Below are positions 40,467 through 58,602 of a stretch of DNA of 64,000 nucleotides, one piece after another. Under the pieces are notes generated by a model, which did no database searches, was not told where the DNA came from, and was given only the letters and a program-made list of their open reading frames with translations. Numbering within the stretch: the first letter of the stretch is position 1; each line of letters begins with the position of its first letter. The translations under genes were made by a program, and so were the position numbers. The stretch is from an uncultured delta proteobacterium (lineage in GTDB: Bacteria > Desulfobacterota > Binatia > Binatales > Binataceae), in NCBI GenBank assembly GCA_963724765.1, contig CAVRVY010000002.1, forward strand, positions 192,001 to 256,000, read 5' to 3'.

Positions 40467-43169
40467 CTATGGAACACAGACCCAGATGTTGTTCAGCCCG
40501 TTAACCCACGCTCCGGTCTTGGCGCCCGCGCTCGTACAAGCCACCGGCGGATTCGCTGGCGGGTCGCAATCGACGCAGTAGCGACGCGCGCCGTTCGTCA
40601 CGCTGCCCGGCAGGTCGGCAAACTTCACGCCCAAGTCCTGGCCGCCCAGGCTTTCGTTCAGCCACCATGACTTTCCCGCGTTAGTGGGAGCGAGACCGCT
40701 GGCCTGGATCACGTCGCGCACCTCGACCGGCGACGATGGAGCGGCGATCACGTCGAGCAGCTCGGCCGGACTTCCGCCGCTGAACAGAGTACCTTTGACT
40801 AAGAATGGCGCGCCGCCGCTGATTGCGAGATAGGCGTTGCCGGTCGCGCCGCTGGTCAGTTGGCCGCCGTTGATGACGATCGGCGCATAGGCGCCGCCGG
40901 AATAGACGGCCGCAATCTCGTTGGGCGCGTTATCCTCAATGTCCAATTCAGGGCTGTCTAGCAGCGCCTGAGCATCGGAAAAGTATAGGGGCGCGACTGC
41001 GTATCCCCGGTCAGTGAAGTCGGGCATTATATAGTGTCCTGAGCCCGTGACCTGGCCGACGCAGGAGTATTGCCCGTCACACTGCAGATGGTCGTAGAGG
41101 TTGTTGTTCGACTGATTGCCGAAGAAAAACCCGACGCTGGTTAAGGTTTTGGGGACGACTACGCACCAGACGCGCCGCACCGTGTCCTGAAAGTCGTTAT
41201 TCGCGAGGTTGATGCAGGTGCGCCCGGCCGTGCCGTTTTCCGCAATGTTCTCGATCGTCGAGTTCAGCATCCAGGTCGCCCAGATGCCGTTGTCGTTCAG
41301 CGAAAGATTACTGATCGTAACCGGGTTGAGGTCGGCCGCGCCGTTGCTGGTTTCGATCGGGATGAAAGTATTAGCCGAATTGTCTACTACGCCTTCGATC
41401 GTCCCCGTGGGCGTGCCGGTTGGGAAGTTCTCCAGAAAGACCGTGTTCCCGTCGCCAACGAACTTTGCCGTTGGCGCGGTAAAGTGTGACGTATAGCGCG
41501 CAACACTGGAGATGCGGATCGAGTCATAAAAAGCTGGCATCAGTGGGGTGTTATATCCAGAGCCCAGGTAAACGCTCGACCCCTGACTAGCGAGCATGAA
41601 GCTCGAATAGGGCGGAATCGTGAGAGTACCCGAAGCCGACGCCGACCCTACCTGTGTGCCGTCAACAAAAAGCCGCACCGTCGTCCCGTCGTAGCTCAGC
41701 GCGACGTGATGAATCTTATTGATGGTTAGACTGTCGGCGGAACCCGACCCGTTCACCGTGACTATTGAACCACCGATATCTACAGAGGCGTGCAGGCAGT
41801 TGGATGAGCAACCGGAAGGAGCGCCGTTGGTCCCGAACCCGAGAGCGTTAACGCCGGAAGCCTCGGGCTGGTCCTGCGTAATAGTCAGAAAGCTGAAGTT
41901 GTCGTAACCACCACCATCGCTGAAGAACGGCTCAATATAGAACTCGAAGGTGAAGGCGGCGAGGCCATTCAAGCTGGTTTCGAAGTTGGCCGCATTCATG
42001 ATCTCGACAGTCGCGTTGTTCGAGCCATATCCCGCGCCGTTGAAGAACTCGCCATCGGCTACGTCGAGGCTGCCGCCAGTGCCGGTCGCGATTGCCTTAT
42101 TGCCACCAGTCGTCGCCAGCGCCCACACGCACGTTCCGTCGTTGACCGTGTTGGGTTGCGAGGTCGGCCAAACGGGCGTCGAACTCCCCGAAGTGCAGCC
42201 GTTGCCGCTGTTGGAGTAGGTCTGGACTTCGATATTGCCGTTGGAATCAACGATGTCAGAAGTGCCGCCGGTGCCAGATGGATACGAGCCGAAATGATGG
42301 TTCGCCTGCCAGGTGACCGTCACACTGGTGCTGAGTGGTGGCTTCCATCCCGTCTCGGCTTCCTGCGCAATAATCGCCGGGCCATTATAGTTCTGTTTGA
42401 TCTGAGTCTGTTGCCAGCCCGCGCCCTCAAACCTAATCGAACAGTTGATCAGGATCGGCGAGGTCGTCTTGTAGTACAGCCCGCCCGGCGTCGCCGGCAG
42501 ATAGACTTCCGGCTTGTTCGAACCGGATGCGCCGCATGCCGCATTGATCGCCGCCTGGATCGCCGCGGTGTCGTCGGTCGAGCCGTCGCCCTTGGCCAGG
42601 TAGGGCGGAGCCTTGACGTTGATCACGCCGTTGACGTTGCCGTTGATGTTCGCGCTCTCGTCGATCGCGACATATGGCGCCGCCGTTCCATTACTCACTT
42701 GCACGCCGGTGCCGGGCCTGAGCAGCTCGCGCCAGTTCGTGTCACCGGTGTTCTCGGTTTCGACCGGGCCGTTGGCCGCCTGCAGGCTCAGCACACCGAG
42801 GACGTTATGGCCGTTGGCGTTGAGGTCCTGCTCGAGCGCGCCGGCCGCGCAGGCCCAGGCCCCGCGCGAGCCCATCGCCCACGCGCCGGCCCCGCCGGCG
42901 CTGCACGGCGACGTGGCCTGGCAATCCTTGCACCACAACAGCAGTCCGTCCTGCTCCGCGGGCAGGCTCGCGAACGACAGGCCGGCGAACTGCGGCGAGA
43001 TCGGCTCGGCGCCGGATAAGCGCTGATTGATCGCCTGGCGGAAGTTGTAGCCTGCGCCGATGCCGGTGAAGTTCGGAATCGGCTGGTATTGCGCCGCCGC
43101 CGCTCCGGCGATCGCGGCCAGTATCAGGAGTGAGCCGAGGAGCGTTTTCGATAACGATTTATACATCAT
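40467..43169 (-). CDS. Tailspike-like protein: signal peptide + pectate-lyase-3-like start + LamG-like domain + beta-helix
   Basis: INVKAPPYLAKGDGSTDDTAAIQAAINAA; HHVALSYDGTTVRLFVDG...DSIRISSVARY; hydrophobic N-terminus ending AAA-Q. Confidence 0.7.
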   Translation of the reverse strand: MMYKSLSKTLLGSLLILAAIAGAAAAQYQPIPNFTGIGAGYNFRQAINQRLSGAEPISPQFAGLSFASLPAEQDGLLLWCKDCQATSPCSAGGAGAWAMGSRGAWACAAGALEQDLNANGHNVLGVLSLQAANGPVETENTGDTNWRELLRPGTGVQVSNGTAAPYVAIDESANINGNVNGVINVKAPPYLAKGDGSTDDTAAIQAAINAACGASGSNKPEVYLPATPGGLYYKTTSPILINCSIRFEGAGWQQTQIKQNYNGPAIIAQEAETGWKPPLSTSVTVTWQANHHFGSYPSGTGGTSDIVDSNGNIEVQTYSNSGNGCTSGSSTPVWPTSQPNTVNDGTCVWALATTGGNKAIATGTGGSLDVADGEFFNGAGYGSNNATVEIMNAANFETSLNGLAAFTFEFYIEPFFSDGGGYDNFSFLTITQDQPEASGVNALGFGTNGAPSGCSSNCLHASVDIGGSIVTVNGSGSADSLTINKIHHVALSYDGTTVRLFVDGTQVGSASASGTLTIPPYSSFMLASQGSSVYLGSGYNTPLMPAFYDSIRISSVARYTSHFTAPTAKFVGDGNTVFLENFPTGTPTGTIEGVVDNSANTFIPIETSNGAADLNPVTISNLSLNDNGIWATWMLNSTIENIAENGTAGRTCINLANNDFQDTVRRVWCVVVPKTLTSVGFFFGNQSNNNLYDHLQCDGQYSCVGQVTGSGHYIMPDFTDRGYAVAPLYFSDAQALLDSPELDIEDNAPNEIAAVYSGGAYAPIVINGGQLTSGATGNAYLAISGGAPFLVKGTLFSGGSPAELLDVIAAPSSPVEVRDVIQASGLAPTNAGKSWWLNESLGGQDLGVKFADLPGSVTNGARRYCVDCDPPANPPVACTSAGAKTGAWVNGLNNIWVCVP

Positions 43170-43178
43170 GTGAATCCG

Positions 43179-43757
43179 TCAAAATCCGATTGCCAGCCAG
43201 GAGAACCCGTTACTCTGCTCGCTTACCAGACCAGCGCGCTGCATCAGGACTCCCGGAACGTCGAGCACGAAGGTCGCGCCGGACGCGCTGTAGCTGATAA
43301 CTGACGCCGCGGTATTGCCGCCTCCGGTGCTATAATAGACATTAGTCGCCAGCGGCGGCAGCAGGATTGCGTTGGGAAACGGGATCGGCCAGGTTACCGT
43401 GAATTGCGTGTCGTTGGGAATGCTCTCTTGAGCCAGTGCGTAGTAGCCCCACTGGATAATCGCGATCGATGAACCGCGGCTCACGTCGGTCAGCGGAATT
43501 TTCAGATAGCCCGCGGTCTTGAGCGACCCGGTGAAGCCGGCGACGAAGCTTTGCAGGGCCCCGATGTTCGCGATGTTGGTGTTCTGCCGCCCGTAAAGAA
43601 ACGCTGTGCGGTTGGCGAGTTGTTGATGGGGTTCGTTACTCACTCCGATACCGCTGAAGCTCGCGCCGGTGCCCGCACCCTCGACCGGGTCGGTTTGCTG
43701 AATCTCGTAAATCTCGTTGGCGGTAAATTCCGGACTATCGATAAGCGTGGCCATCAT
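43179..43757 (-). CDS. Short tail fibre protein (gp53-like C-terminal domain)
   Basis: G.SN...QLANRTAFL fibre N-terminus; GYLKIP...IIQWG...VTWPIPFPN...WLAIGF. Confidence 0.75.
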   Translation of the reverse strand: MMATLIDSPEFTANEIYEIQQTDPVEGAGTGASFSGIGVSNEPHQQLANRTAFLYGRQNTNIANIGALQSFVAGFTGSLKTAGYLKIPLTDVSRGSSIAIIQWGYYALAQESIPNDTQFTVTWPIPFPNAILLPPLATNVYYSTGGGNTAASVISYSASGATFVLDVPGVLMQRAGLVSEQSNGFSWLAIGF

Positions 43758-43762
43758 TCACC

Positions 43763-44416
43763 TCAGAACGTGAAGGTCCAGGTGCCCTGGTAATTCGCCG
43801 TGCCATTGAAGACGAAGCCCGGCACCACCGCGTGCGCCAGCATCGGAGCCGGCGCCGTATGCAGCGCGACCAGCGTCCAGACCAGGGTGCCGTCGCTGGT
43901 GGTGGCGCCGAGCGCCGTCGCCCAGGTCGGCGCCGTCGAGCCGCTGGTGCCCGCCGTCGTGCAGCGCTGAATATTGCCGTTGGCGTCGACGATCAAATTG
44001 CCGGCGGTCCAGGCCGTCGACCCCGCCCAGGCCGGATTCGCCGTGCCGATCGCGGATGGCATCGCGGCGCCCGCGCCGTTGGCGAACAGGCCCACCTCCT
44101 GCACGGTCATCCCGAGCGCTCCGTAGTCGGCGGTCGCCGAGAGCGCGTAGTTGAACTGCACGCTGCCGGAGCTGGGAAAAGTATGCGCGCCCACTGCGTT
44201 GTAGTATTTCGGCGCGGCGCCCAGATCGGTGTCATTCACGGTGGGCGCGGTGCTGCTGGAGCCGAAGCCGACCGCCAGTGCGTATTGGCCGGTTGTAACC
44301 CCCGCCATCAGGCTGGCCAGCGCCGGCAGCCCCGCGTTGACGAACAGATTGCGGCACTCCCACATCAGCGCGCCGCGCCTGAAGATTCTGACTATTCCCT
44401 GTGGCCGTTTCATCAT
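43763..44416 (-). CDS. Tail collar / fibre-attachment-like protein with inserted CBM-like module
   Basis: NLFVNAG, AVGFG...AP...DTDL, EVGLF, terminal WTFTF. Confidence 0.65.
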   Translation of the reverse strand: MMKRPQGIVRIFRRGALMWECRNLFVNAGLPALASLMAGVTTGQYALAVGFGSSSTAPTVNDTDLGAAPKYYNAVGAHTFPSSGSVQFNYALSATADYGALGMTVQEVGLFANGAGAAMPSAIGTANPAWAGSTAWTAGNLIVDANGNIQRCTTAGTSGSTAPTWATALGATTSDGTLVWTLVALHTAPAPMLAHAVVPGFVFNGTANYQGTWTFTF

Positions 44417-44421: not shown

Positions 44422-45249
44422 TTACCCATCTGCCGAAATAGGCACTCCGTTGGCGACCACCCCCGAGTCGGCTACTGCCGGTTCGTTGGCGCCGTATGTT
44501 ATCCCGATATGGTAGTAATGCCGATTGTATACCGGTGCGATCACTCGCTGGTCCGCCAGCGGCGCCAGTGGCGCAGTCAGCAGGTCACTCGGTGCGGGTG
44601 CGTTGTCGACCGCGCCGGTGAAGTCCCCCGGCGCCGGCGCCACGTCGCCCAGTGGCGCCGCCTCGAACACCAACGCGTCGAGCCAGCTTCGCGCCGGCTT
44701 GAAAAAATTTACCGCGGCGACGATCCGTGTCGCATCGTTCGCGCCCACCGTCTGTCCGGCTTCTAGACTCACCATCACGCGAAATACCGCCCAACCCTCT
44801 GAAGACGGCCATGCGCTGCCGCCCCAGCTCGCCTGTCCTTCCAGGAAGCTGACGCTGGTCCAGCCCAGCGAGCCCAGCGCCTGGCTTATCGAAGAGGGTG
44901 TGCCATGCACGCGATGCAGTGGAATGGCGGTTTGCAGCAGCGCTCGCCACGTATCGAAGTCGGTCGGCCCCGCGCTGCTCGACGACGACAACAACGTATC
45001 GACATCGGTCAGCGTGTCGATGTCGGTCAGCGCGTCGATGCTCTCGCCCGAGGTGCTCGCCGCTAGCTGCCACTGCGGATCGAGCATGTCGAATTGCCAG
45101 GCCAGGAAGGTCAGCGCTGAGTCGGGTGCCGAGTCGAGGCGGTAGACCAGCAATGGCGTGAGATCGAGCGCGTCGAGCCGTTCGATGGTTGCCAACAGCG
45201 ATTGCGAACGCAGGTCGTCTATCGACGGCGGTATTTGGAGTTGCGCCAT
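44422..45249 (-). CDS. Baseplate/tail protein I (P2 gpI-like)
   Basis: L.FLAWQF, AIPLHRVHGT, KPARSWL. Confidence 0.8.
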   Translation of the reverse strand: MAQLQIPPSIDDLRSQSLLATIERLDALDLTPLLVYRLDSAPDSALTFLAWQFDMLDPQWQLAASTSGESIDALTDIDTLTDVDTLLSSSSSAGPTDFDTWRALLQTAIPLHRVHGTPSSISQALGSLGWTSVSFLEGQASWGGSAWPSSEGWAVFRVMVSLEAGQTVGANDATRIVAAVNFFKPARSWLDALVFEAAPLGDVAPAPGDFTGAVDNAPAPSDLLTAPLAPLADQRVIAPVYNRHYYHIGITYGANEPAVADSGVVANGVPISADG

Positions 45250-45500
45250 TAATCCACCAGCAATCCCGGCGCCGCCGCCCGGTCATGCCCCCCGCGTTCG
45301 CCGTTGCCGCGCTTCTCCGGCGCGCAATACATGTGCGGTTCCGGCGCAGGTATCGGCTTGGCCGTGTCGAACCGCGCGATTAGCTCGTCGGCCTCCGCCG
45401 CGCTGCGCTTGTGGTCAGCGATGAGATGCGCGCGCACCGCGTCCGCGATGCACAACGCGCCCCGGCAAAGCGGGCAGAACTGCGTGGCCGGCGCGCCCAT
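45249..45500 (-). CDS. Small putative C2H2 zinc-finger protein
   Basis: CPLC-x12-HLIADH; start overlaps the gpJ stop (TGATG) and stop overlaps the gpI start (TAATG). Confidence 0.55.
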   Translation of the reverse strand: MGAPATQFCPLCRGALCIADAVRAHLIADHKRSAAEADELIARFDTAKPIPAPEPHMYCAPEKRGNGERGGHDRAAAPGLLVD

Positions 45501-46669
45501 CACGAATGCTCCGAGGCGATCGCCTGCGCCAGTGTGATCGCGGTGCAGTTGGCCCATTGCCCGGCGGTGAGTTGCGTATAGGACGGCTGCGTCAGCACCA
45601 CCTGGTAGACGCCGGGGACCGATAGCGCCGCCACGATTTCGCTCGGCACGATGTCGCGCTGGATGCGTGCGGCCAGGTTGAGCGCGATGTCCTGTGCGGC
45701 GGTGTTGACCGCGGCCATGGTCGAGATCGGTTCGGCGTCGGCGAACAGTGTGACCGTGCCTGTGATCTGGTAGTCGATTTCGCTCACTGCCAGTGCGCTC
45801 ACCGTGTCGGTCAACGGCCGCACGTTATCGGCCCCAAGCGCCTGCTGCACCTGCGCGAGCAGCGCGGAATTTGCCACCCCCGCGCTGTTGGGCGAAGCGG
45901 CCGGCTGCGCCGCGATTGGCCCGGTCAGGATGTAAACCTGGACCGTGCCGGGCGCGGGTGAGACCACGGCGACGTCGATAATCGAGGGATCTACGCCGAG
46001 TGCGAAGAAGCGGTACGCGCCCGTCGGACCGGCCACGCTGAACTGATTGGGCGCGGCCTGGATGCGGGTGCGCAGATGGTCGTCGGTCTCGGGCGCCGAG
46101 CCGCCGCCGGTCGTGACGGTGTTGGTCACAGAAGCGATCAGCACGTTGGGATTGAGCAGCACGCTGACCTGGCCGGGAAGATAGCCGTTGGCATTCGGGC
46201 CCGCCGTGATGCAGGTCGCCGTGGTGCTCGCGACCGTCGTCGCGGCCGGCACGATGAGATCGGCGCCAGTCGCGAAAACGAACTCGCCATCGGCGGTGCC
46301 GGCCTGCGTGCCGGCCGGGATCGTATATGCCAGCGTGAGCGCGTTTTGCAGCGTGAACTGCAGCGTCGTCACTGCACCCTGCGCGCCGAGCCGGCTCACT
46401 CCGAGCAACTGCCCCAGGTAATCGATCATCGGAAAGACCGCGAAGGCGAGCAGGTTCTGCTGTCCGGCGTATTGGATCGCGTTGCGGACCAGAGACTCAC
46501 GGTAAGCGTACAGGTTGATCAGCAGGCGCTCCACCTGCGCTGGTTGCAAAGTGCGGCCGGCGGCGGTCTGGAAGGCCGTTATCATGTCGGCCAAAATCAG
46601 GTTGGGATTAAGCCCGTCGGCGTCATTGACGAATGTCGGTGGCGGCAGATTTGATATTCCGGCTCCCAT
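45500..46669 (-). CDS. Baseplate J / gp47 family
   Basis: NLLAFA, GG...ETDD.LR.RI, SVAGP.GAY, VRPLTD.V. Confidence 0.9.
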   Translation of the reverse strand: MGAGISNLPPPTFVNDADGLNPNLILADMITAFQTAAGRTLQPAQVERLLINLYAYRESLVRNAIQYAGQQNLLAFAVFPMIDYLGQLLGVSRLGAQGAVTTLQFTLQNALTLAYTIPAGTQAGTADGEFVFATGADLIVPAATTVASTTATCITAGPNANGYLPGQVSVLLNPNVLIASVTNTVTTGGGSAPETDDHLRTRIQAAPNQFSVAGPTGAYRFFALGVDPSIIDVAVVSPAPGTVQVYILTGPIAAQPAASPNSAGVANSALLAQVQQALGADNVRPLTDTVSALAVSEIDYQITGTVTLFADAEPISTMAAVNTAAQDIALNLAARIQRDIVPSEIVAALSVPGVYQVVLTQPSYTQLTAGQWANCTAITLAQAIASEHS

Positions 46670-46746: not shown

Positions 46747-47190
46747 CTATGCTGGCTGGCCCGCGCTCGCCGTTGTGACCGTCGTGTTCTGCGCCGGGCT
46801 CGGCGCGGTGCCGAGGTTGAGCTGCCACGACACCGTTATCTCGACGTGCGCTCCCGGTTGCGCCGCGACATCCAACAGCGGCGTGGTCGTGACCGAGAGC
46901 AGCTTCACACGGGGCTCCCACTGAGTAATCGCTTGAGTAACTTCGCGGACCACGGCCGGCCCCGCTTCGCTAATCGGTGCATCGATATATTTCCAGAAGT
47001 CGACGCCGAAAGTTGGACGCAGCACGTCAGTGCCTTTGGGCGTGGTCAAAATGATCGCGATACACTGGTCGACATCGGCGACCCCGGTGACCACGTTGCC
47101 GATTCCCGACCCCGGCTGTCCCGGCGTATCGAGCATCAGCGACCAATCCGCCGACGTGATATCCGCAAGTGTGATTGCTCCGGCCGGCAT
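46747..47190 (-). CDS. Baseplate wedge gpW / gp25 family
   Basis: QCI.IILTTPKG....RPTFG, AI..WEPRV. Confidence 0.88.
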   Translation of the reverse strand: MPAGAITLADITSADWSLMLDTPGQPGSGIGNVVTGVADVDQCIAIILTTPKGTDVLRPTFGVDFWKYIDAPISEAGPAVVREVTQAITQWEPRVKLLSVTTTPLLDVAAQPGAHVEITVSWQLNLGTAPSPAQNTTVTTASAGQPA

Positions 47191-47804: not shown

Positions 47805-47869
47805 GGATGCCGCCTCCTTCACCCCAGGGTTCGAAATCTCGCGTCACGCGTTTATGGTTCGGCGCCGCG

Positions 47870-51848: not shown

Positions 51849-52370
51849 CTAGCCGCCCAGGTTGGTGCGGAAGTTTGCGAGCTGGTCGACGCCGTTGACC
51901 ACGTATATGTTTGCCATCACGTCGAACAGGAATATCTGCGTGCCGGCAATATACAGTTCGGAGTGATAGACCGAGATCAGCGACGTGGTATCCACTCCTT
52001 CGTGCAGCTTGAAGTTCATCGAGCCGGCATCTTTGAATATCCCGGTCATCAGGTAGACCAGCGGCTGTTCCTGCGTGCGTCCCTGGCTGGTGTAGGTTTC
52101 GAGGCTGCCGCGAACCTGGAAGTAGTGCGCCGTGAAGGGGCTGTTCAGCGCCGTTTCGGCCTCGGGATAAATCGACGCCCACTTGATTTTGGCCTCGAGC
52201 TTGTCGACGCCGGCCCAGAACTCCGCCGAGCCCGCCATCCCGAGCCCCTTGTGGTCGACCATCTTGTGCTTGGGTTTGGCGACCTCGATTTCCTCGGCGC
52301 GGCCGAGGAGCCCGGTGCCGTCGAGGTAAACGTTGGCGTTGGTGATTCGATTTACGGCCAGATTTGACAT
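51849..52370 (-). CDS. Major tail tube protein (P2 FII-like)
   Basis: NANVYLDG..LLG..EE, GM.G, D.LE, N...VNGVD.L...R.NLG. Confidence 0.88.
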   Translation of the reverse strand: MSNLAVNRITNANVYLDGTGLLGRAEEIEVAKPKHKMVDHKGLGMAGSAEFWAGVDKLEAKIKWASIYPEAETALNSPFTAHYFQVRGSLETYTSQGRTQEQPLVYLMTGIFKDAGSMNFKLHEGVDTTSLISVYHSELYIAGTQIFLFDVMANIYVVNGVDQLANFRTNLGG

Positions 52371-52430: not shown

Positions 52431-54161
52431 TTAGGCGTTGAGCGTGGTCGCGGTCTGCGCGTTAGTATCGCCGAGCCCGCTTAGCAGCGTGGAGTCGATG
52501 TAGACGTTGAAGGTCAGACGTTCGGCCGGCGGCGGCGGCATCACGTCGATGTCGAAAACCAGTTGTCCGGCCGCCACCTGGTTGGACGGGTTCTCGGCGG
52601 GATTGTAGCTGGCGGAGCCGGCGACCAGCGCGCCGCGGCCGATGAGGCTGCGGATGAAGGCATTGACGCTGGCCAGGATCGCCGAGATGAGCGCGTTGCT
52701 AATCGGCTGATCGATGAACTGGAGCATCGCGAGTTCCACCGATTCCTCGATCACGTCCATCGTGCGGCGTATGCTGATGAAATTGTTGGGCGTGGTCACC
52801 GTGGGGTAGGCGGCCGAACGGTTGCCCCACACTCGCAGGCCGGTGCCGAAGGCGTTGAAGACGGTCACGATGCCCTGCGCGTTGAGGTTGTTTACGTCGC
52901 TCGCCGGATCCAGCACCGAGGCGTAAAGCGTCACGTCGGGACCGAGCGGGCCGGTCATCTGAGTATTTGAGGGCGACCACCAGTAACCCTGCGACAGGTC
53001 CTTGGCCGCGATCGTTCCAGCTACCCACTGCGAATACGGTCCAACCGCGGTGACGTTGGCTGCGTTCTGCACGGGCGTGCCCGCCGAATTGAGCGTAACA
53101 CCGGTCGGGACCAGACCCAGGTCGGAGAATTGCTCTTGCGGATAGCAGAGCAGGGCACGGTCCGAGCTGGTGTCGAACACGTTGCCTGCGACGCCGCGAT
53201 TGGCGATGGCGGTGGCCGGAGAGATCGACGGTGGAGAGTCGATCAGCGCCACCGCGCGAATTGTCAGCGCCGTCGAGAGCAATGCGCTGGCGGTCGCGGG
53301 ATCCTGCGAGTAGCCAGGCGCGATCAGAATCTTCGGGAAAAACCCCATCGTGCCGTAAGTCGTGCGCAGCGCCTGGATTCCCGTGTACATGGTGCCGGTG
53401 ACCGAACCGACGATGTCGCTGTCCTGCACCTTGCTCGGGTCGGCGTAGCTGAAGGAGACGCTGAGCGCTTCGCCGGTAGTGATTGCGCCGCCCGCTTTCT
53501 GCGTGACGATTCCGTTTATGGGGTCGAGCGTATAGTCAGTTCCGTTTATATAGGTAGTCGAACCGCCGCCGCTGTTCTTGACTAGCACATTCCAGACGCC
53601 CATATGTCCCAGGTTGAGTACCTGAGGTCCCGACGCCGGCATCGCCATCGCCTGTGCCGTGATGGCGGTGTAGTGGAGATAGGGGTTGAAGACGTTAACC
53701 ACGATCGCCTGGCCGGCGCCCTGGGCCTGGATGGCCGCGAGCGCGTAGGGAATCGTGTACCCCTGGATTAGCGGGCCGTACGCGGCGGTCGAGCCGGCGA
53801 TATTCGGATTGGCGGTAAAATTGACCAGCGTGGGCGCTTGCAACAGAGTCCCGGCGATGGTGACCAGCTTCCAGATTGCGGTGCCGTCGGCGGTGGTGGC
53901 GTTGAGCGTGGTCGACCAGGCCGGTGCGGCGGTGCCGGTAGTGCCGGCGGTGGAGCACTGCTGGATGTTGCCGTTGGGATCGACCAGTTGCAGGCCGGCC
54001 GCGACCACGCAACTGGGCTGCCACATCGCCGCCGCGCCGACGGCCGCCCACAGCGGCGCGGAGCCGACCAGGCCGATCACCGACGACTTGACGACTGTGA
54101 TTGGGACCGGTCCGGTGGAAGTTTCGATTGTTTCAATTCCATGTAGAAAGCTGGCTGCCAT
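52431..54161 (-). CDS. Contractile tail sheath (P2 FI-like) with two inserted accessory modules
   Basis: FLHGIET, VIGLVGSAP, PKILIAPGY, GYWWSPSN, GLRVWGNRS, PPPAERL. Confidence 0.93.
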   Translation of the reverse strand: MAASFLHGIETIETSTGPVPITVVKSSVIGLVGSAPLWAAVGAAAMWQPSCVVAAGLQLVDPNGNIQQCSTAGTTGTAAPAWSTTLNATTADGTAIWKLVTIAGTLLQAPTLVNFTANPNIAGSTAAYGPLIQGYTIPYALAAIQAQGAGQAIVVNVFNPYLHYTAITAQAMAMPASGPQVLNLGHMGVWNVLVKNSGGGSTTYINGTDYTLDPINGIVTQKAGGAITTGEALSVSFSYADPSKVQDSDIVGSVTGTMYTGIQALRTTYGTMGFFPKILIAPGYSQDPATASALLSTALTIRAVALIDSPPSISPATAIANRGVAGNVFDTSSDRALLCYPQEQFSDLGLVPTGVTLNSAGTPVQNAANVTAVGPYSQWVAGTIAAKDLSQGYWWSPSNTQMTGPLGPDVTLYASVLDPASDVNNLNAQGIVTVFNAFGTGLRVWGNRSAAYPTVTTPNNFISIRRTMDVIEESVELAMLQFIDQPISNALISAILASVNAFIRSLIGRGALVAGSASYNPAENPSNQVAAGQLVFDIDVMPPPPAERLTFNVYIDSTLLSGLGDTNAQTATTLNA

Positions 54162-54211: not shown

Positions 54212-55048
54212 CTAGTTGGTCGGGGCCGTCGGCGATGAAGAGCCGTTGGCGACCGCGGTGACCGTGTCGGAATAGGTATAGGTAACGTTGACCGTCGCAT
54301 TCGGAGCGATCGCGCCGCCCGCGGCCTGTGTGATGATTCCATTGACCGCGTCCAGCGTGTAATCAGTGCCGGCGAGATAGGCATTGCCGCCGCCAGCCGG
54401 GCTAATTACAAGGTTGGCGACATTACCCACCGGCAACTGGATCACACCCTGCGAGTTGAATGTGTATGCGGCCTGCGTGGCTGCCGTGGCGGTCTGCCCG
54501 CCCTCTTTCAACGCAGTGCCTTTGATGAAGAGCGGGAAATTGTCCAGCGTCGAGGTTTCCAGCGCCATTGTCTCGAGCGCGTAGAGTGCCGACCAGGTCC
54601 ATACGCCGCCTTGCGGGTCGCGGCCCAGGAACTGTTCCCTAAGCGGGAACATCTTGCGGCATCCGGGAACGCGAAAACCGGTCAGTGCGGCGCGGATCGC
54701 TTCGAGCAGCGCGTAGGCGCCGGGGTTGGGCCCCGACGGGTCGGCGCCGAAACTCCATCCGAGGTCGCGCACCAGCAGGAGGATTTCGAATTCGAGCCGG
54801 CGCGCCTGCGCGATCGCTGCCGTATCGATCAACGCTCCGTATGTCGCGCCGCGCCAGGCCACCAGGGCTGCTCCGATACGATGGGTGAGGCGGTAGGCGG
54901 CCGGCTTGTCGGGAAATTGCGCGATCTCGATCGCGCTTATCTGCGCACGAAGCTGCGCCGCGACCGCCGACTCGATGGTTGCGATATCGAGCGGCGTGGG
55001 CGGCGTGAAAATCTGCCCGGCCCAGGCGCTGTCCAGCGTCACGCCCAT
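54212..55048 (-). CDS. Mu gp37-like tail terminator with C-terminal accessory domain
   Basis: FPD.P..Y...H..GA.LV, Y.LLE..R.ALTG; position after gp36. Confidence 0.75.
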   Translation of the reverse strand: MGVTLDSAWAGQIFTPPTPLDIATIESAVAAQLRAQISAIEIAQFPDKPAAYRLTHRIGAALVAWRGATYGALIDTAAIAQARRLEFEILLLVRDLGWSFGADPSGPNPGAYALLEAIRAALTGFRVPGCRKMFPLREQFLGRDPQGGVWTWSALYALETMALETSTLDNFPLFIKGTALKEGGQTATAATQAAYTFNSQGVIQLPVGNVANLVISPAGGGNAYLAGTDYTLDAVNGIITQAAGGAIAPNATVNVTYTYSDTVTAVANGSSSPTAPTN

Positions 55049-55050: not shown

Positions 55051-55500
55051 TCAGAACCCCTTCAAACTGCCGCGGCTGAAAACGCGCTGCGGTAGCGCGC
55101 CTGCCTCGGTGACGACCGCGCCCGCGGCCTCGGGCGGTTCCTGGTTATCCGGCGCAAGGCCCAGCGTGAGGGTGCCGTCGGCGACGCGCACCAGGACCGC
55201 CACCGCGTCTTCGTAGCGCTTGCGCGCCTCGGCCAGATCGTGGAGCGGGCGCAACGCCTGCAAGCGGTACATCGCGACGTCGCAAGTCAGGCGCGCAAGT
55301 ACGGCGGGCGGATCGTTGAGCGGCAGGGTGAAGCGGCTTTCCAGGTAGCCGTCGATCTCGGCCGAGGCGTCGGCGAGCGCCTGCTGCAGGACGCCATCGT
55401 TGACGACGGTCTGAGTCGGATCCTCGTTGGTCAGCTGCACGAGATCGCGGTTGGGGTAGCGTGCGATCATGTCCGAGGGTTGCGCGTAAACCATGGCCAA
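55051..55500 (-). CDS. Mu gp36 / DUF1320 head-tail adaptor
   Basis: AL.DASAEIDGYL..R..LPL...P..L....CD.A.YRL, RYEDA, FSR. Confidence 0.9.
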   Translation of the reverse strand: MAMVYAQPSDMIARYPNRDLVQLTNEDPTQTVVNDGVLQQALADASAEIDGYLESRFTLPLNDPPAVLARLTCDVAMYRLQALRPLHDLAEARKRYEDAVAVLVRVADGTLTLGLAPDNQEPPEAAGAVVTEAGALPQRVFSRGSLKGF

Positions 55501-55598: not shown

Positions 55599-56543
55599 CT
55601 AGGCGAGGTACTCGCTGACAATCAGGTCGGCGCTGTTGCGCCAGATGTTGGTGGTGGGCACGGAGGAGCTGGCGCCGGCGCCGACCATGAACTCCGAGTT
55701 GAGCAGCTGGCGGGCGACTTCCTCGAGCGAGGGCGGTACCAGCAGGTAGACGCCTTTGCGGCTGGAGAGCGCGCCGAACGGCAGTCCGCCGTCGGTTTTA
55801 ATCGAGCGCATCGCCGCGCGCGCCGCGCCATAGTTGGTCGGATTGCTGAGATCCGTGTTGCTCGCGTAACAGAGCTGCCACAGCCCGACCCCGGTGTTGG
55901 CGCGGCCGTCGACGCCGTAGCGGAATTCGCGCCGATTGAAGACCGCCTCGTCGGTGAGCGTGTTCATCCGCGTGACCGCGTACTCGCGGCGCAGCTGGAA
56001 GATGAACGGCCGGATCGGGCGCGAGGCGTCGATCAGGAACCAGTAGGCGCCGCTGCCGGTGGAGTTGACGTTGGCGACCTCCGTCGGCGTGTTGCCCATC
56101 GGCCCTACCGGATGGGTTGCGGAGAAAAAGGCCTGGCCGTCGTAGCCGAGAACGGAGGAGGGCGTGTTCACGGCCGCCTTGATGGTCGAGAAGAGCAGCA
56201 TGTCGGGATGTACCTTGGTGTCCCAGCCGAGCTGCTCGATGACCGGCTCGTAGACGCCGTAGGTGTCGTCCTCGACGTCGTTGCGGTCGATGCCGACGGT
56301 GTCCTCGAAGTTCTTGTTGACGATCGTGTAGGCGTGAGCCTCGAGCGCCTGGGCCACGCGGCTGCCGAGCCACTCGCGGAACTTGGTGGTGCGGCCGAGC
56401 CACGGGTAGGTCGTCTGCCGCGAGCCCGAGCGCACGATCGAGGCGATCTGCTCGTAGTAGCTCGGCGGCGTTTCGAACCCGCGCTGGAAGATAACGTCGA
56501 AGCCGGTGAACAGTGCGGTGAGATTTGCTGCGCTGATTTCCAT
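55599..56543 (-). CDS. Mu-like major capsid protein gpT
   Basis: YPWLG....REWLG.R, Y.I.NK.FE.TV...R..EDD, YDGQ.FF...HP, FRYGVD.R.N.G.G.WQ, LLVPP.LE. Confidence 0.93.
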   Translation of the reverse strand: MEISAANLTALFTGFDVIFQRGFETPPSYYEQIASIVRSGSRQTTYPWLGRTTKFREWLGSRVAQALEAHAYTIVNKNFEDTVGIDRNDVEDDTYGVYEPVIEQLGWDTKVHPDMLLFSTIKAAVNTPSSVLGYDGQAFFSATHPVGPMGNTPTEVANVNSTGSGAYWFLIDASRPIRPFIFQLRREYAVTRMNTLTDEAVFNRREFRYGVDGRANTGVGLWQLCYASNTDLSNPTNYGAARAAMRSIKTDGGLPFGALSSRKGVYLLVPPSLEEVARQLLNSEFMVGAGASSSVPTTNIWRNSADLIVSEYLA

Positions 56544-56602
56544 CGTTGCTACCGTGTGGGCCCGCGGCGCGGCCGCGAGCGGCTGGAGGTTGAGCGGTTG
56601 GC

Positions 56603-57334
56603 CTAGACCGCGAGTGCCGCCTGATGCCAGAAGTCGACCCAGACCTGGCCACTGGGGTCGAGGTTGACGATCGCGCCGGCGACGCTGCGCGCGGGGCCGC
56701 CCCAGTTGTACGAGACCAGGACCGTGGCGGCGGCCGCGATCGCGCCGCCGCTTGGCGCCAGCATGATCAGCCCCGCCTGGTAATCGACCACGTAGTCGGT
56801 GCCCTCGACGTAGGTGGTACCGGCGGGCGAAGAGGTCACCACGACCTTCGAGATGTTCTCGTGGCCGAGGCTGATGATCTGCGCGCTGGTCGAGACGGGA
56901 AACGTATGCGACTGCGCACTGACCGCGGTCGCGCCTGAGCCGTCGCTGAGCGACACCGAGTTGTCGTCGACCGCGAAACAGGGCATCCCGACCTGGGGCT
57001 GCGCGATCGATCCGTCGTTGATCGCGTAAAGAAAGACCCCGCGCGCGCAAATCACCGAGATCGCGCCGGCCGCGCCGGCCGGCAGGTTGGTTCCGGGAAT
57101 CGTCACCGACGACGTGTTGACCGCGTCCTGCCCCGGCATCCCGAGATAGGTGCCCTCGGCGCGGCCGACGATCCGCAGTCCCGCGGTGGAAGCGGCGGGC
57201 ACCGCGTTGCCGTTGGCGTTGAGCGCCACCATCGAACCCAGGTAAACCGTGGTGCTGGCCTCGACCGGGTAGATCTGCATCCGCCCGAAGTCGGACATCT
57301 CAGGCGTGTTGCGTGAGCTGGTTAGAGCCGCCAT
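56603..57334 (-). CDS. Head decoration / cement-like protein with inserted accessory domain
   Basis: AL...RNTP, PV.A....Y.G..V.....G.A.PA, G..C.AVDD; position between protease and capsid. Confidence 0.72.
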   Translation of the reverse strand: MAALTSSRNTPEMSDFGRMQIYPVEASTTVYLGSMVALNANGNAVPAASTAGLRIVGRAEGTYLGMPGQDAVNTSSVTIPGTNLPAGAAGAISVICARGVFLYAINDGSIAQPQVGMPCFAVDDNSVSLSDGSGATAVSAQSHTFPVSTSAQIISLGHENISKVVVTSSPAGTTYVEGTDYVVDYQAGLIMLAPSGGAIAAAATVLVSYNWGGPARSVAGAIVNLDPSGQVWVDFWHQAALAV

Positions 57335-57391
57335 TTCGTCACCTCTTTGAATCCTGCCTTTGCCTGTCCGGCCACGCTGTGCGCGTCCGGT

Positions 57392-58546
57392 CTAGTCGTT
57401 GCCGCGGTTGAGCCGCAGAAAATCGCTGCGCCCGGAACGCTTGCGCCCGAGGTAGTCCTCGGGGCTCAAGCCGAGTTGCGTACAGATCGCGGTCTCGGCG
57501 GCCGTCAGTGCGGACCTCGCGGCGCGGGAGGGCGGCGCACTGAAAGTCGCGGCCGCGTTCTCGAAGCCCGCGCCGAAAGCCATCGGCTGGCGCGAGGCGA
57601 AGGCGGCGAAGCCCTTGAAGTCCGCCTGGCAATAGGAGATTGCCCATTGACGCTGGGCCGGAATCAGCTTGCCCGCTTTGATCGCGTCGTCGACCGCGCG
57701 CTCGGCGCGCTCGCTGGCGCGCTCGGCGCGCATTTGATTCAGCTCGGCCAGTACGCGCTGAAACTGCGCGACCGCCACGTAGCGCGCCGGGTCGGCGCCG
57801 GCTCCGGCCTGCATTGCACCGGCGCCATCGTCGTCGTCGTCGTCCGCGCAGTCATCGTCTTGCGCGCCGTCGCGCCCGCCGTCTTCATCGTCATCGCCGT
57901 GGGCGCTTTCGTTCAGCGCGCGCACCGCCGCGAGGACCTCCTCGGGCGAGCAGTCGTCGTCGAGTCCGAGCATTTCGCACAACTGTTGCAGCAGCGTGTC
58001 CATCGCTTTGTCCCCTTCGGGGTGCGGCTCAACCACTTCGGCCGCACGCGCCGAGATCGCGGTCAGATAGAGATTCGGATTGTTGGTCAGTCCCGCGCGC
58101 AAAAGCCGCGTGACCGCGCCGTCAGGCGAGTACTGGAAGACCGGCGAGATGTAGCGGTACTCGCGCGAAGTGATGGCTTTGGCACCATGCGGAGTCCATT
58201 CCACGCGGCCCCACAGCGCGCCGTCGCGCTCCGCGAGTTCCCGGATCCATCCGGCGGCGGGAGCCGGACGGCCCTTGGGTGCGGCGAAGTCGGTCGCATG
58301 ATCGTAATCGATCGGCACGCCTGCGGTGAGGCCGAGCGCCTCGGTCGCCGCGATTACGCGCGTCGGGCTGGCAAGCCGGAATGGGCCGCGGCCGTCGCGT
58401 CCGCTGAACTCGCCCCCCGGGATCAGCATCACCCACTCGGGCGGCGCGCTGGAGGAAAGATCGGCGTCCTCGATCGCGGTGCCATGCACCGCCAGCGGGC
58501 CGCCCCGTTCAATCTGCTCTATGGTTTTGAAGTGCGTCACGTCCAT
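57392..58546 (-). CDS. Mu gpI-like capsid maturation protease / scaffold
   Basis: GRDGR, IDYDH, APAAGWI, VEWT..G...I...EYRYISPVF, AGLTNNPNL; C-terminal A..GK..PA...WA. Confidence 0.92.
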   Translation of the reverse strand: MDVTHFKTIEQIERGGPLAVHGTAIEDADLSSSAPPEWVMLIPGGEFSGRDGRGPFRLASPTRVIAATEALGLTAGVPIDYDHATDFAAPKGRPAPAAGWIRELAERDGALWGRVEWTPHGAKAITSREYRYISPVFQYSPDGAVTRLLRAGLTNNPNLYLTAISARAAEVVEPHPEGDKAMDTLLQQLCEMLGLDDDCSPEEVLAAVRALNESAHGDDDEDGGRDGAQDDDCADDDDDDGAGAMQAGAGADPARYVAVAQFQRVLAELNQMRAERASERAERAVDDAIKAGKLIPAQRQWAISYCQADFKGFAAFASRQPMAFGAGFENAAATFSAPPSRAARSALTAAETAICTQLGLSPEDYLGRKRSGRSDFLRLNRGND

Positions 58547-58583
58547 CGCGCGGAAGTGTGCCCGAATCCCCGAATCTGCATAA

Positions 58584-58602
58584 GGGTGAAATATTTTCAC
58601 CC
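58584..58602. promoter_or_regulatory. Perfect inverted repeat (candidate operator) upstream of gpI
   Basis: GGGTGAAA-TAT-TTTCACCC about 38 bp before the operon's first ATG. Confidence 0.5.

What the first reader, a model, noticed from the sequence alone, without database searches (positions are those of the whole stretch)
40467..58602. Head-plus-contractile-tail operon with no packaging, integration or lysis genes: candidate domesticated phage-derived particle system (GTA-like or novel injection particle)
Seen: about 20 co-oriented, tightly packed ORFs run from a Mu gpI protease and gpT capsid through a P2-like sheath, tube, baseplate and fibres, with host-like GC except in the TMP. I found no stops or frameshifts other than the programmed one. 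Established: in Mu-like phages the terminase, portal and gpF/gpG genes lie directly upstream of gene I, and transposase, repressor and lysis genes are further upstream. Here the region upstream of gpI holds about 270 bp of non-coding DNA, an IS and host gltA. R-type tailocins and eCIS lack capsid genes, and RcGTA-type agents keep terminase and portal. A capsid and tail with no local portal fits neither class. Inference: this is a host-maintained particle factory whose packaging genes are elsewhere in the genome, or which assembles DNA-free particles. Fine functional signals (slippery site, internal scaffold RBS, coupled starts) are retained, which argues against simple decay.
Basis: partly seen in the sequence, partly recalled or inferred. 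Interest (0 to 1): 0.9.

Follow-up and report, generated by a model that had tools for sequence, protein, structure and literature searches.

The report
Domesticated Mu-like phage particle genes
This is the head-and-tail half of an old phage that soil bacteria of the family Binataceae have kept, immobile and intact, probably to make DNA-filled particles of their own; its packaging and lysis genes are not missing but sit 21 kb away.

Summary
Window 40467-58546 (minus strand) carries about 20 intact genes, from a Mu gpI protease and gpT capsid through a P2-type sheath, tube, baseplate and fibres. Upstream lie 270 bp of non-coding DNA, an IS1595 transposon and gltA.

The packaging and lysis genes are not missing. 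The TerS-like gp27, TerL, Mu portal, a GH108 endolysin with spanin, Mor and an S24 repressor lie on the same strand, 15.8-31.7 kb beyond the window's end.

The element is collinear with phage BcepMu. It lacks the whole transposition and early region and the F and G genes.

It is old and inherited with the host:
- gpT occurs in 121 of 165 Binataceae species genomes and TerL in 118 of 165.
- The gltA split is collinear in the four genus relatives compared.
- A second genus shares the flanking host genes.
- Median dN/dS is 0.11-0.25, like the neighbouring host genes.
- A -1 frameshift site is kept in 62 of 66 loci.

The two modules are contiguous in 13 genomes and split in 52, by 6.7 kb to 1.25 Mb.

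Best reading: a domesticated, GTA- or PBSX-like particle system of independent origin. Function is untested.

The parts
57392..58546 (-). Mu gpI-type head protease/scaffold, first gene of the head-tail operon
   Evidence: PF10123 3.8e-74. Start taken at the ATG at 58546; the longer TTG ORF reaching 58714 is not conserved.
58547..58815 (-). 270-bp non-coding leader of the head-tail operon, with palindrome GGGTGAAA-TAT-TTTCACCC at 58583-58601; candidate late (P_I-like) promoter or operator
   Evidence: Sequence. The proximal 57-79 bp align with genus relatives. The core palindrome is present in 8 of 10 genus loci and 15 of 80 loci overall. Its function is inferred.
56603..57334 (-). p243: virion structural or decoration-like protein with a C-terminal Ig-like domain
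   Evidence: PHROG 1731 9.5e-26 and PHROG 807 (Ig-like) 4.9e-12. Atlas lead to viral clusters.
55599..56522 (-). Mu gpT-type major capsid protein (307 aa)
   Evidence: PF10124 5.2e-93. 89-96% identical in 11 of 16 genus species.
55051..55500 (-). Mu gp36-type head-tail adaptor
   Evidence: PF07030 1.1e-35
54212..55048 (-). Gp37-type neck or terminator protein with an added Ig-like C-terminal domain
   Evidence: PF09646 8.7e-28. Its C-terminus matches p243 and the sheath.
52431..54161 (-). Contractile tail sheath with about 100 extra N-terminal residues
   Evidence: PF04984 and PF17482. 43-45% identical to the BcepMu sheath over 76-82% of its length.
51849..52370 (-). Tail tube
   Evidence: PF04985 4e-39
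51312..51766 (-). Tail assembly chaperone (51407-51766) with -1 slippery site A_AAT_TTT at 51491-51485 and a frameshift extension to 51312
   Evidence: An in-frame A_AAT_TTY heptamer with a 44-60 codon -1 extension is kept in 62 of 66 loci (3 rows are duplicates).
49830..51293 (-). Tape measure protein (487 aa), assigned by position
   Evidence: Lies between the chaperone and gpU as in BcepMu. No family match. It is the least conserved gene, 46-59% identical in relatives.
49181..49810 (-). P2 gpU-type tail protein
   Evidence: PF06995 2.2e-22
48927..49184 (-). P2 gpX-type tail protein X
   Evidence: PF05489 7.6e-12. dN/dS 0.02-0.12.
47870..48877 (-). P2 gpD-type baseplate hub
   Evidence: PF05954 2.6e-11
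47265..47822 (-). gpV-type baseplate spike
   Evidence: PF04717 1e-6
46747..47190 (-). gpW/gp25-type baseplate wedge
   Evidence: PF04965 1.3e-14
45500..46669 (-). gpJ-type baseplate protein
   Evidence: PF04865 3.3e-49
44422..45249 (-). P2 gpI-type baseplate protein
   Evidence: PF09684 7.9e-14
43763..44416 (-). f217, fibre-associated protein; shares a 56-residue motif with the sheath N-terminus
   Evidence: 55% identity over 56 aa; PHROG 5417
43179..43757 (-). f192, tail fibre protein
   Evidence: PF21882 Gp53-like_C 4.7e-8
40467..43169 (-). f900, large distal fibre or spike with a pectate-lyase-like and a ConA-like lectin domain; the fastest-diverging structural gene
   Evidence: PF12708 and PF13385. 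45-70% identical in genus relatives with dS 1.2-1.4. Replaced by a 1249-aa protein in G042.
58816..60809 (+). Strain-specific IS1595-family transposon (transposase 58868-59755 plus two passenger ORFs), inserted just after the gltA terminator; not part of the system
   Evidence: Absent from the 4 relatives and from all 80 loci.
60892..62301 (-). Host citrate synthase gltA; in most relatives it is the gene directly upstream of gpI

Best explanation
The cluster is the head-and-tail half of a chromosomally fixed, vertically inherited derivative of a BcepMu-like transposable myophage (Mu-type head, P2-type contractile tail). The derivative is spread through the family Binataceae.

The other half lies on the same strand at G000:C2:271.8-287.7 kb. 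It holds a cI-like S24 repressor, a Mor activator, a GH108 endolysin with an Rz-like spanin, the TerS-like gp27, TerL and a Mu portal. About 21 kb of host genes ending in gltA separate the two halves.

The element has no transposase, no integrase, no replication genes and no Mu F or G.

The break falls exactly where Mu starts a separate late transcript at gene I (recalled knowledge of Mu's P_I promoter). Host DNA could therefore accumulate there without uncoupling expression.

Inferred mechanism:
1. A signal, possibly DNA damage, removes the repressor.
2. Mor switches on the lysis-packaging unit and the head-tail unit.
3. Capsids are filled with headfuls of chromosomal DNA and joined to contractile tails.
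4. Particles are released by lysis of a subpopulation.

This is a gene-transfer-agent-like or PBSX-like particle.

Shown: anatomy, genome-wide distribution, immobility, synteny and purifying selection. Inferred: induction, particle formation, what is packaged and what the particles do.
For: **Both modules are present and intact in G000**
-.

**Gene order**
- Collinear with BcepMu gp25-gp52, minus gp30 (F) and gp31 (G). TerL is 57% and the sheath 43-45% identical.

**No mobility genes**
- Only 862 bp separate the repressor from Mor.
- Mu-transpos_C gives 0 hits in G000.
- No rve hit on the element's contig in 4 of 4 genomes whose element contig was located.
- No tyrosine integrase within 85 kb in G000, and none on the element contig in 3 of 4 other genomes. 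In the fourth the nearest is about 420 kb away.
- gpF occurs in 13 of 165 family genomes, against gpT in 121 and TerL in 118 of 165.

**Copy number and synteny**
- Single copy in G000.
- The whole 65 kb (repressor to portal, the host block through lig, dedA and gltA, then gpI to fibres) is collinear in 4 of 4 genus relatives compared.
- In G042 (=G121), of another genus, the element is a contiguous 30 kb. Its tail-side flank holds the same host genes (MscS-like, glnA-like, acyl-CoA dehydrogenase), and one gene on the repressor side is shared.
- gpT lies 21-25 kb from the glnA-like gene in 9 of 11 genus genomes and 4 of 9 g35 genomes that have gpT.

**Selection**
- Median dN/dS against 4 relatives: head-tail 0.11-0.20, regulation-lysis-packaging 0.13-0.25, neighbouring host genes 0.14-0.24, at dS 0.3-0.9.

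**Fine signals**
- The -1 frameshift heptamer is kept in 62 of 66 loci.

**Phylogeny**
- A capsid tree of 32 rows needs 10 changes for 11 host genera, which is the minimum. 0 of 200 shuffles were as low.

**Module spacing** (hand tally)
- Of 66 genomes with TerL and gpT on one contig, 13 are contiguous, 1 has a deletion and 52 are split by 6.7 kb to 1.25 Mb.
- In the single-contig genome G068 both modules still show full-length ORFs, apart from a possibly split repressor.
Against: - No expression, particle or transfer data exist. No RNA run was listed.
- The hosts are uncultured and all genomes are metagenome bins.
- gpT was not found in 44 of 165 genomes, 19 of them among the 96 high-quality ones, and in 8 of 30 genera.
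- Some copies are broken. gpT is in pieces in G001, G075, G076, G089, G109, G111 and G164. The portal carries a stop in G001 and is split in G004. TerL carries stops in 5 genomes, and 7 more match only in pieces or in part.
- In G000 itself, IS1595 copies sit between Mor and the endolysin and between gltA and the gpI leader. They may have cut the operons off from their control.
- Mu F and G, morphogenesis genes of the ancestor, are absent.
- The tape measure is short and poorly conserved.
- The tail-side flank is not shared outside two genera. gpT and the glnA-like gene lie 0.46-2.9 Mb apart in 9 genomes of 5 other genera.
- The genus-level host and element trees are mostly unresolved, so they show no conflict rather than proven congruence.
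- dS of the head-tail genes is higher than that of the neighbours. This could reflect some exchange between lineages.
- Nothing here separates DNA transfer from killing.
Confidence: 0.65

Rival explanations
1. PBSX-type killer particle. The same domesticated element is kept as a phage-tail-like bacteriocin. The contractile tail kills related cells, and the DNA in the head is a by-product that is not productively delivered.
For: - It has a contractile tail with a complete baseplate.
- The distal fibre diverges fastest (45-70% identity, dS 1.2-1.4) and is replaced in another genus, as expected for a targeting arms race.
- An S24 repressor paired with an activator resembles pyocin and PBSX control (the comparison is recalled).
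- Loss of F fits a lost need for genome delivery. The BcepMu record annotates its F as 'minor head protein and DNA pilot'.
Against: - TerS-like gp27, TerL, portal, capsid and decoration genes are all held under purifying selection across the family. A pure tail weapon does not need them; R-type tailocins have shed them.
- No immunity or effector gene was recognised.
Confidence: 0.2
2. An ordinary defective prophage in slow decay. It was split by IS-mediated rearrangement and has no present function.
For: - IS1595 elements abut both modules in G000.
- The transposase, F and G are gone.
- Some species carry broken capsid, portal or TerL genes.
- A true decaying remnant of a related phage exists at C1:459950-469346.
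Against: - At dS 0.3-0.9 some 30 genes stay open with dN/dS of about 0.1-0.25.
- The split is collinear in 4 of 4 genus relatives and is not caused by the IS, which is strain-specific.
- The element is found in 121 of 165 species.
- The frameshift site is kept in 62 of 66 loci.
- The C1 remnant, by contrast, had no counterpart in the other 24 genomes of that search, 15 of them genus members.
Confidence: 0.05
3. A family of still-active temperate phages that co-speciate with their hosts. They would replicate or integrate through genes that were not recognised, or with a helper.
For: - Contiguous 30-kb forms with repressor, lysis, packaging, head and tail genes exist.
- IMG/VR lists 72 related contigs as viral.
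- Real Mu-like prophages with transposase or F occur in some of the same genomes.
Against: - Even the contiguous forms have under 2 kb between the repressor and Mor, and host genes on both sides.
- Of 15 IMG/VR contigs that carry both portal and gpI, none has F between them.
- The locus is the same in two genera.
- Mostly one copy per genome.
- Split forms spanning 55 kb to 1.25 Mb cannot be packaged as one genome.
Confidence: 0.05
4. Only part of the element is used, for example the tail as an injection device or the lysis cassette for programmed lysis. The rest persists by linkage.
For: The modules can be far apart. In a few genomes one module was found without the other: G129 has TerL but no gpT, and G007 has gpT but no TerL or portal.
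Against: - Head, tail and packaging genes show similar constraint.
- The genus-level distributions of gpT and TerL nearly coincide, 22 and 21 of 30 genera.
- Linkage cannot protect genes that lie 1.25 Mb apart.
Confidence: 0.05

Closest known systems
Burkholderia phage BcepMu (Bcepmuvirus), a Mu-like transposable myophage
   Same: - Gene order from gp25/gp26 through TerS-like gp27, TerL, portal, I protease, T capsid, gp36, gp37, sheath, tube, frameshifted chaperone, tape measure, U, X, D, V, W, J and I to the fibres.
- TerL is 57%, the sheath 43-45% and gpJ 40% identical.
   Different: - No transposase A or B, GemA or other early genes.
- No F (gp30) or G (gp31).
- Tape measure of 487 aa against 846 aa.
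- An extra decoration-like p243 lies before the capsid gene.
- Ig-like domains are added to gp37 and p243.
- The head proteins belong to another Mu-like branch: 40-43% identity to Ralstonia RS138 and Pseudomonas B3-type phages, with no BLAST match to BcepMu.
- The element is fixed in the chromosome and split by host genes.
RcGTA-type, BaGTA and BhGTA gene transfer agents (viriforms)
   Same: - Phage-derived head, tail, packaging and lysis genes fully endogenised.
- Often spread over several loci, vertically inherited and slow-evolving, with no replication or integration module.
- Criteria are listed in the Introduction of PMC9662315 (passages read). Met here on the genomic criteria.
   Different: - Not homologous in ancestry. 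The RcGTA type is a siphovirus-like element; this one is Mu/P2-like.
- All three recognised GTA families are described with non-contractile tails (passages of PMC9662315). This one encodes a contractile tail.
- Random packaging, small head capacity and transfer are untested here.
PBSX-type defective prophages of Bacillus (recalled knowledge; only a reference-list entry was seen)
   Same: - A defective prophage conserved in the genus with head, contractile tail, terminase and lysis genes under a repressor.
- Particles carry host DNA and kill sensitive strains.
   Different: - Unrelated phage ancestry and host phylum.
- PBSX is a single contiguous locus.
- Its behaviour was shown at the bench; here there is none.
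R-type tailocins (pyocin R2 type) and extracellular contractile injection systems
   Same: A P2-like sheath, tube and baseplate (gpU, X, D, V, W, J, I and fibres), and a repressor-activator-lysis logic.
   Different: Those systems have no capsid, portal or terminase. This element keeps all three under selection.

Membership tests
Gene transfer agent / viriform (criteria as listed in PMC9662315, Introduction) | Encodes caudovirion-like particles (head, tail, packaging, lysis genes) | tested here: met
   This shows the genes only; particles have not been seen.
Gene transfer agent / viriform | Genome fully endogenised in the host genome, often across several loci | tested here: met
   No transposase or integrase. 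52 of 66 same-contig genomes have the two modules split by 6.7 kb to 1.25 Mb (hand tally).
Gene transfer agent / viriform | Mostly vertical inheritance and co-diversification with hosts | tested here: met
   Collinear in 4 of 4 genus relatives. Flanks shared between two genera. The capsid tree needs the minimum 10 changes for 11 genera, with 0 of 200 shuffles as low. The genus-level host and element trees show no supported conflict but are poorly resolved. The flank is not shared in 5 other genera.
Gene transfer agent / viriform | Own genome cannot be fully packaged (head capacity smaller than the gene set) | tested here: inconclusive
   Head capacity is unknown. In G000 the gene set spans 55 kb, against 36.7 kb for the BcepMu genome. 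In G068 it spans 1.25 Mb. A contiguous 30-kb form could fit a Mu-sized head.
Gene transfer agent / viriform | Particles hold mostly random host DNA | not testable with these tools
   Needs sequencing of particle DNA.
Gene transfer agent / viriform | Packaged DNA is delivered to other cells | not testable with these tools
   Needs a transfer assay. The hosts are uncultured.
Mu-like transposable phage (Mu, BcepMu) | DDE transposase A with Mu-type C-terminal domain, plus the B ATPase | tested here: not met
   PF09299 gives 0 hits in G000, G042 and G043; the hits in G041 and G045 lie on other contigs than the element. Only 862 bp lie between the repressor and Mor. BcepMu A and B proteins found no match on 72 IMG/VR contigs (a low-sensitivity search).
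Mu-like transposable phage | Mu-type late genes: gp27, TerL, DUF935 portal, F, I, T, gp36, gp37 | tested here: inconclusive
   All are present except F. PF04233 hits only the unrelated remnant on C1 in G000, and 13 of 165 family genomes. G is also absent between portal and I.
R-type tailocin / eCIS | Contractile tail module without capsid, portal or terminase | tested here: not met
   Capsid, protease, portal and TerL are present and constrained.
Intact temperate prophage | Integration or transposition and replication functions; variable insertion sites; able to package its whole genome | tested here: not met

The most novel reading that the evidence does not exclude
This would be a further independent origin of a gene transfer agent. 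It would be the first in the uncultured phylum Binatota, the first derived from a transposable (Mu-type) phage, and the first among recognised GTA families with a contractile tail.

Mu-type terminases start at a pac site inside the integrated element and fill the head in one direction. The immobile descendant would then package in situ. It would preferentially export the chromosomal block that has grown between its packaging and head modules (here gltA, dedA, an ATP-dependent ligase and others) together with the downstream flank. That would make it a built-in lateral-transduction engine whose cargo bay is the split itself.
Probability: 0.12. Interest if true: 0.9.

Novelty: new member of a known kind. 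Interest (0 to 1): 0.72.

Why it matters
Only a handful of independent domestications of whole tailed-phage particles are known: the RcGTA type, BaGTA, the Brachyspira GTA, Dd1, VTA and the PBSX-like elements.

This element adds a well-delimited candidate in an abundant but uncultured soil and peat lineage. It has a clear phage ancestor (BcepMu-like). It also offers a graded natural series, from a contiguous 30-kb form to modules 1.25 Mb apart, that records how a prophage is taken apart and absorbed into a chromosome. The split falls at a transcription-unit boundary of the ancestor.

It gives concrete, testable predictions for particle-fraction metagenomes of soils rich in Binataceae. It also warns that virus-calling pipelines already list these chromosomal genes as viral contigs (72 related IMG/VR contigs).

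Tried and rejected
**Readings tested and set aside**
- Misassembly or an assembly break hiding the packaging genes. Rejected: the IS copies are only 36-62% identical at protein level, and the same arrangement recurs in four independently assembled relatives.
- The IS caused the split. Rejected: the 2-kb IS1595 transposon is strain-specific and sits inside an intergenic region that is about 160 bp in relatives.
- The gpF next to a partial portal on C1 is a trans-acting part of the system. Rejected: the portal search found no counterpart of that C1 locus in the other 24 genomes searched, 15 of them genus members. PF04233 occurs in only 13 of 165 genomes.
- A shared operator at other promoters. 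The gpI-leader palindrome has no second copy in the genome within 4 mismatches beyond chance-like hits.
- The head-tail module's place beside tig-clpP-clpX-lon in G068 is a shared derived state. It was found in only 1 of 80 loci, G068's own.

**Tests that proved too crude**
- My first intactness count by BLAST coverage scores domain differences in p243, the chaperone and the sheath as 'broken'. I use it only for single-domain genes. Of the loci that had a match: gpI 77 of 80, gpT 67 of 73, tube 62 of 63.
- Genus-level host versus element trees were too poorly resolved to prove congruence.

**Searches that found nothing**
- Literature: 'Binatota' + 'prophage' gave 1 unrelated paper. 'Binatia' + 'gene transfer agent' gave 0. 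'gene transfer agent' + 'Mu-like' + 'domesticated' gave 6 papers, none describing this by title or abstract. These searches cover only the held library.
- Expression: no RNA holder was listed for window 51849-58546.
- Atlas look-ups gave only leads: p243 near viral clusters, p206 unknown.

**Tools and files not used**
- Structure prediction, fold search, complex prediction, the search for homologous proteins, the search of protein representatives, the listing of cluster members and the RNA tools. The look-up of encoding contigs is marked closed and was not called.
- Supplementary files were not requested. The supplementary tables of PMC9662315 might refine the comparison with known GTA gene sets.

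**Unpublished genomes**
These may not be published without their depositors' permission.
- The family-wide counts include up to seven of them: G062, G063, G142, G179, G183, G184 and G185.
- The capsid tree includes G183 and G185.
- The contiguous tally includes G184 and G185, and the split tally includes G179.
- The integrase check includes G185.
- G044 was touched only by the rve search and supports no claim.

Full report
**1. What is in the window**

The window is G000:C2:192001-256000, from a 5.4-Mb genome in 4 contigs. Titles of related records place it in Candidatus Binataceae.

On the minus strand, from 58546 down to 40467, lie about 20 tightly packed ORFs. Pfam and PHROGs name nearly all of them. 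In order they are:
- the Mu gpI protease/scaffold;
- a decoration-like protein with an Ig-like domain (p243);
- the Mu gpT capsid, gp36 and Gp37;
- sheath, tube and a tail chaperone;
- a tape measure, assigned by position only;
- P2 gpU, X, D, V, W, J and I;
- three fibre proteins, the last with pectate-lyase-like and lectin-like domains.

All frames are open.

The chaperone gene carries an in-frame A_AAT_TTT heptamer at 51491-51485, and the -1 frame then runs on to 51312.

Upstream of gpI lie 270 bp of non-coding DNA. Next comes a 2-kb IS1595-family transposon at 58816-60809, with 47-nt terminal inverted repeats and a target duplication of about 8 bp. Then come the gltA terminator and gltA.

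**2. The 'missing' genes**

A search of the whole genome for the Mu portal family found an intact portal at C2:271814-273229. It is on the same strand, 15.8 kb beyond the window's end. Gene calling and family scans of C2:256-296 kb show, reading upstream from the portal:
- TerL (273307-274839; no Pfam match, but 57% identical to BcepMu TerL);
- the TerS-like Mu gp27;
- homologues of BcepMu gp26 and gp25;
- membrane proteins and an Rz-like spanin;
- a GH108 endolysin with a peptidoglycan-binding domain;
- two IS1595 copies enclosing foreign low-GC ORFs, and a duplicated 5' fragment of the endolysin gene;
- a Mor-family activator;
- 862 bp further on and divergently oriented, an HTH plus S24-peptidase repressor.

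Beyond the repressor come host genes.

Between the portal and gpI lie about 21 kb of host-type genes: an unknown membrane protein (p206), DUF3443 paralogues, a glycogen-phosphorylase-like gene, a glycosyltransferase, a hydrolase, an ATP-dependent DNA ligase, dedA and gltA. gltA is the genome's only close copy.

**3. Ancestry**

The nearest cultured relatives are Mu-like transposable phages. The sheath is 43-45% identical to those of BcepMu and phiE255. The capsid is 40-43% identical to those of Ralstonia RS138 and Pseudomonas B3-type phages.

Laid against the annotated BcepMu genome, the element is collinear from gp25 to the fibres. It lacks gp30 (Mu F) and gp31 (Mu G), which in BcepMu sit exactly between portal and protease. 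It also lacks the entire early region with transposase A and B.

No Mu-type transposase domain was found in G000. No tyrosine integrase lies within 85 kb of the element. Its only F-family match belongs to a separate, rearranged remnant of a related phage at C1:459950-469346.

**4. It is old and moves with the host**

*Distribution.* The capsid gene is present in 11 of 16 other species of the genus at 89-96% identity. It is present in 121 of 165 species genomes of the family, which is 77 of 96 high-quality genomes and 22 of 30 genera, and almost always once per genome. TerL shows nearly the same distribution: 118 of 165 genomes and 21 of 30 genera. F is sporadic, in 13 of 165.

*Synteny within the genus.* In four genus relatives the whole 65 kb is collinear with G000, including the host block between the modules. 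gltA ends about 160 bp before gpI in relatives, so the IS in G000 is a late, private insertion.

*Synteny across genera.* In G042 (=G121), of another genus, the element is a contiguous 30 kb with the portal abutting gpI. It is flanked on the tail side by the same host genes as in G000 (MscS-like, glnA-like, acyl-CoA dehydrogenase). One gene on the repressor side is also shared. gpT lies 21-25 kb from the glnA-like gene in 9 of 11 genus genomes and 4 of 9 genomes of that second genus. In 9 genomes of 5 other genera the two genes lie far apart. The locus is therefore not fixed family-wide, and I report that as a limit.

*Phylogeny.* A capsid tree was built from the 30 best family hits plus G042 and G068. 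It needs only the minimum 10 changes to explain 11 host genera, and 0 of 200 shuffles were as low. Genus-level host and element trees agree on the one well-supported clade and otherwise lack resolution.

**5. It is maintained**

Pairwise Nei-Gojobori estimates were made against four relatives at dS 0.3-0.9.

| Gene set | Median dN/dS |
|---|---|
| Head-tail genes | 0.11-0.20 |
| Repressor-to-portal genes | 0.13-0.25 |
| Surrounding host genes | 0.14-0.24 |

TerL scores 0.10-0.27 and portal 0.12-0.20. The -1 slippery heptamer with its extension is conserved in 62 of 66 loci that have the chaperone gene, three rows being duplicates of the same contigs.

Decay does occur in some lineages. G001 has a broken capsid gene and a stop in the portal. 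Six other genomes have fragmented gpT. TerL carries stops in 5 genomes, and 7 more match only in pieces or in part.

**6. The split is a recurrent, graded feature**

This is a hand tally, covering 66 genomes with TerL and gpT on one contig.
- 13 are contiguous, with a gap of 2.9-3.9 kb that is filled by portal, gpI and p243. They fall in five genera.
- 1 has a deletion.
- 52 hold extra DNA of 3 kb to tens of kb at this one junction.
- In G102 the modules are 41 kb apart and inverted.
- In the single-contig genome G068 they are 1.25 Mb apart on opposite strands. Both still show full-length ORFs, apart from a possibly split repressor.

The earliest insert appears to be p206. It is present alone between portal and gpI in L029 and is retained in most split forms. 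The content beyond it differs between genera.

From recalled knowledge of phage Mu, gene I starts its own late transcript (P_I). That would explain why this junction tolerates insertions. The leader of gpI keeps a conserved 8-3-8 palindrome in the genus and in some contiguous forms. Its role is inferred.

**7. Interpretation**

The element is immobile, vertically inherited, selected as a whole and partly dispersed. This matches the genomic criteria listed for gene transfer agents in passages of PMC9662315. It does not fit an active prophage, a decaying remnant or a tailocin.

The element keeps a repressor with a self-cleaving-type peptidase domain, an activator and a lysis cassette. Release by lysis of induced cells is therefore the likely mode.

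Retention of TerS-like, TerL and portal genes argues that heads are filled with DNA.

What the particles do, whether they transfer DNA, kill like PBSX, or both, cannot be told from sequence. The fast-changing distal fibre fits either. I put 0.65 on the domesticated particle system as stated, and 0.2 on the variant in which killing is the selected function.

In this particular genome, IS insertions between Mor and the endolysin and upstream of the gpI leader may have impaired control, although every structural ORF is intact.

**8. Novelty**

My searches of the held library found nothing on such an element in Binatia or Binatota. The three formally classified GTA families are described with non-contractile tails (passages of PMC9662315). 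PBSX-type elements, known to me from memory, share the myovirus-like form.

I therefore file this as a new, independently derived member of the known kind 'domesticated tailed-phage particle system'. Function is still to be shown.

Noticed in passing
G000:C1:459950-469346 (outside the window): Rearranged remnant of a second, related Mu-like prophage. It holds an F-like gene and the 3' half of a portal on one strand. On the other strand are a short repressor-like ORF, a GH108 fragment, gp25/gp26/gp27 homologues and an intact TerL (68% identical). The portal search found no counterpart of this locus in the other 24 genomes searched, 15 of them genus members.
   Followed up: partly
window 56603-57334, 54212-55048, 52431-54161: One Ig-like domain of about 60-80 residues (33-51% identical between copies) occurs in three virion proteins: the C-terminus of p243, the C-terminus of Gp37, and an insert in the sheath. 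The BcepMu sheath carries it too.
   Followed up: partly
window 53856-54023 and 43862-44029: A 56-residue Gly/Thr/Trp-rich motif is shared at 55% identity by the sheath N-terminal insert and fibre protein f217. By eye a similar stretch occurs in the 900-aa fibre.
   Followed up: no
window 58583-58601: Perfect 8-3-8 palindrome GGGTGAAA-TAT-TTTCACCC, centred 46 nt before the gpI start. It is conserved in genus relatives and in some contiguous-form genomes of other genera (15 of 80 loci by a loose pattern), and has no second copy in the genome.
   Followed up: partly
window 58816-60809: IS1595-family transposon carrying two passenger ORFs: a 52-aa zinc-ribbon-like peptide and a 254-aa membrane protein of low GC. 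It is inserted into the T-run of the gltA terminator. The genome holds at least 16 further IS1595-type transposase matches.
   Followed up: partly
G000:C2:279379-283916 (outside the window): Two IS1595 copies enclose low-GC ORFs between Mor and the endolysin. The first 39 or so codons of the endolysin are duplicated as a fragment at 282464-282739. G014 also has an IS in this spacer and G001 has about 3 kb of extra DNA there, so this is a second insertion hot spot.
   Followed up: partly
L115 (G042:C34:39755-40075) and L125 (G068:C1:3959493-3959777): In other genera a small gene sits between the tail chaperone and the (short) tape measure gene. By eye it looks like an RRM-type RNA-binding protein. 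It is absent in G000.
   Followed up: no
L064:1646-2452, L034:3613-4425, L123 (G068:C1:2716074-2716880): A conserved 268-270-aa gene on the opposite strand follows the portal in 15 of 80 loci, next to the p206 homologue. By eye it resembles a SAM-dependent methyltransferase; this was not tested.
   Followed up: no
L036 / G016:C14: In G016 about 10 kb separates gpI from gpT, so host or foreign DNA has also entered inside the head module there. The L022 locus likewise shows nothing of the element after gpI.
   Followed up: no
window 40467-58546 versus flanks: Synonymous divergence of the head-tail genes (length-weighted dS 0.48-0.94) is consistently higher than that of the packaging module (0.31-0.60) and the neighbouring host genes (0.42-0.69) for the same genome pairs. 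The cause is unexplained; weaker codon bias or some allele exchange are possible.
   Followed up: no
window 45249-45557: A 102-aa ORF with a CxxC motif fills the 250-bp gap between gpJ and the P2 gpI-type gene. It is conserved in 3 of 4 genus relatives at 61-75% identity, with dN/dS 0.32-0.73 and no family match.
   Followed up: partly
L147-L218 (IMG/VR): 72 public contigs labelled viral carry this element or relatives. One (L150) includes gltA directly upstream of gpI, so chromosomal copies are being catalogued as viruses.
   Followed up: partly
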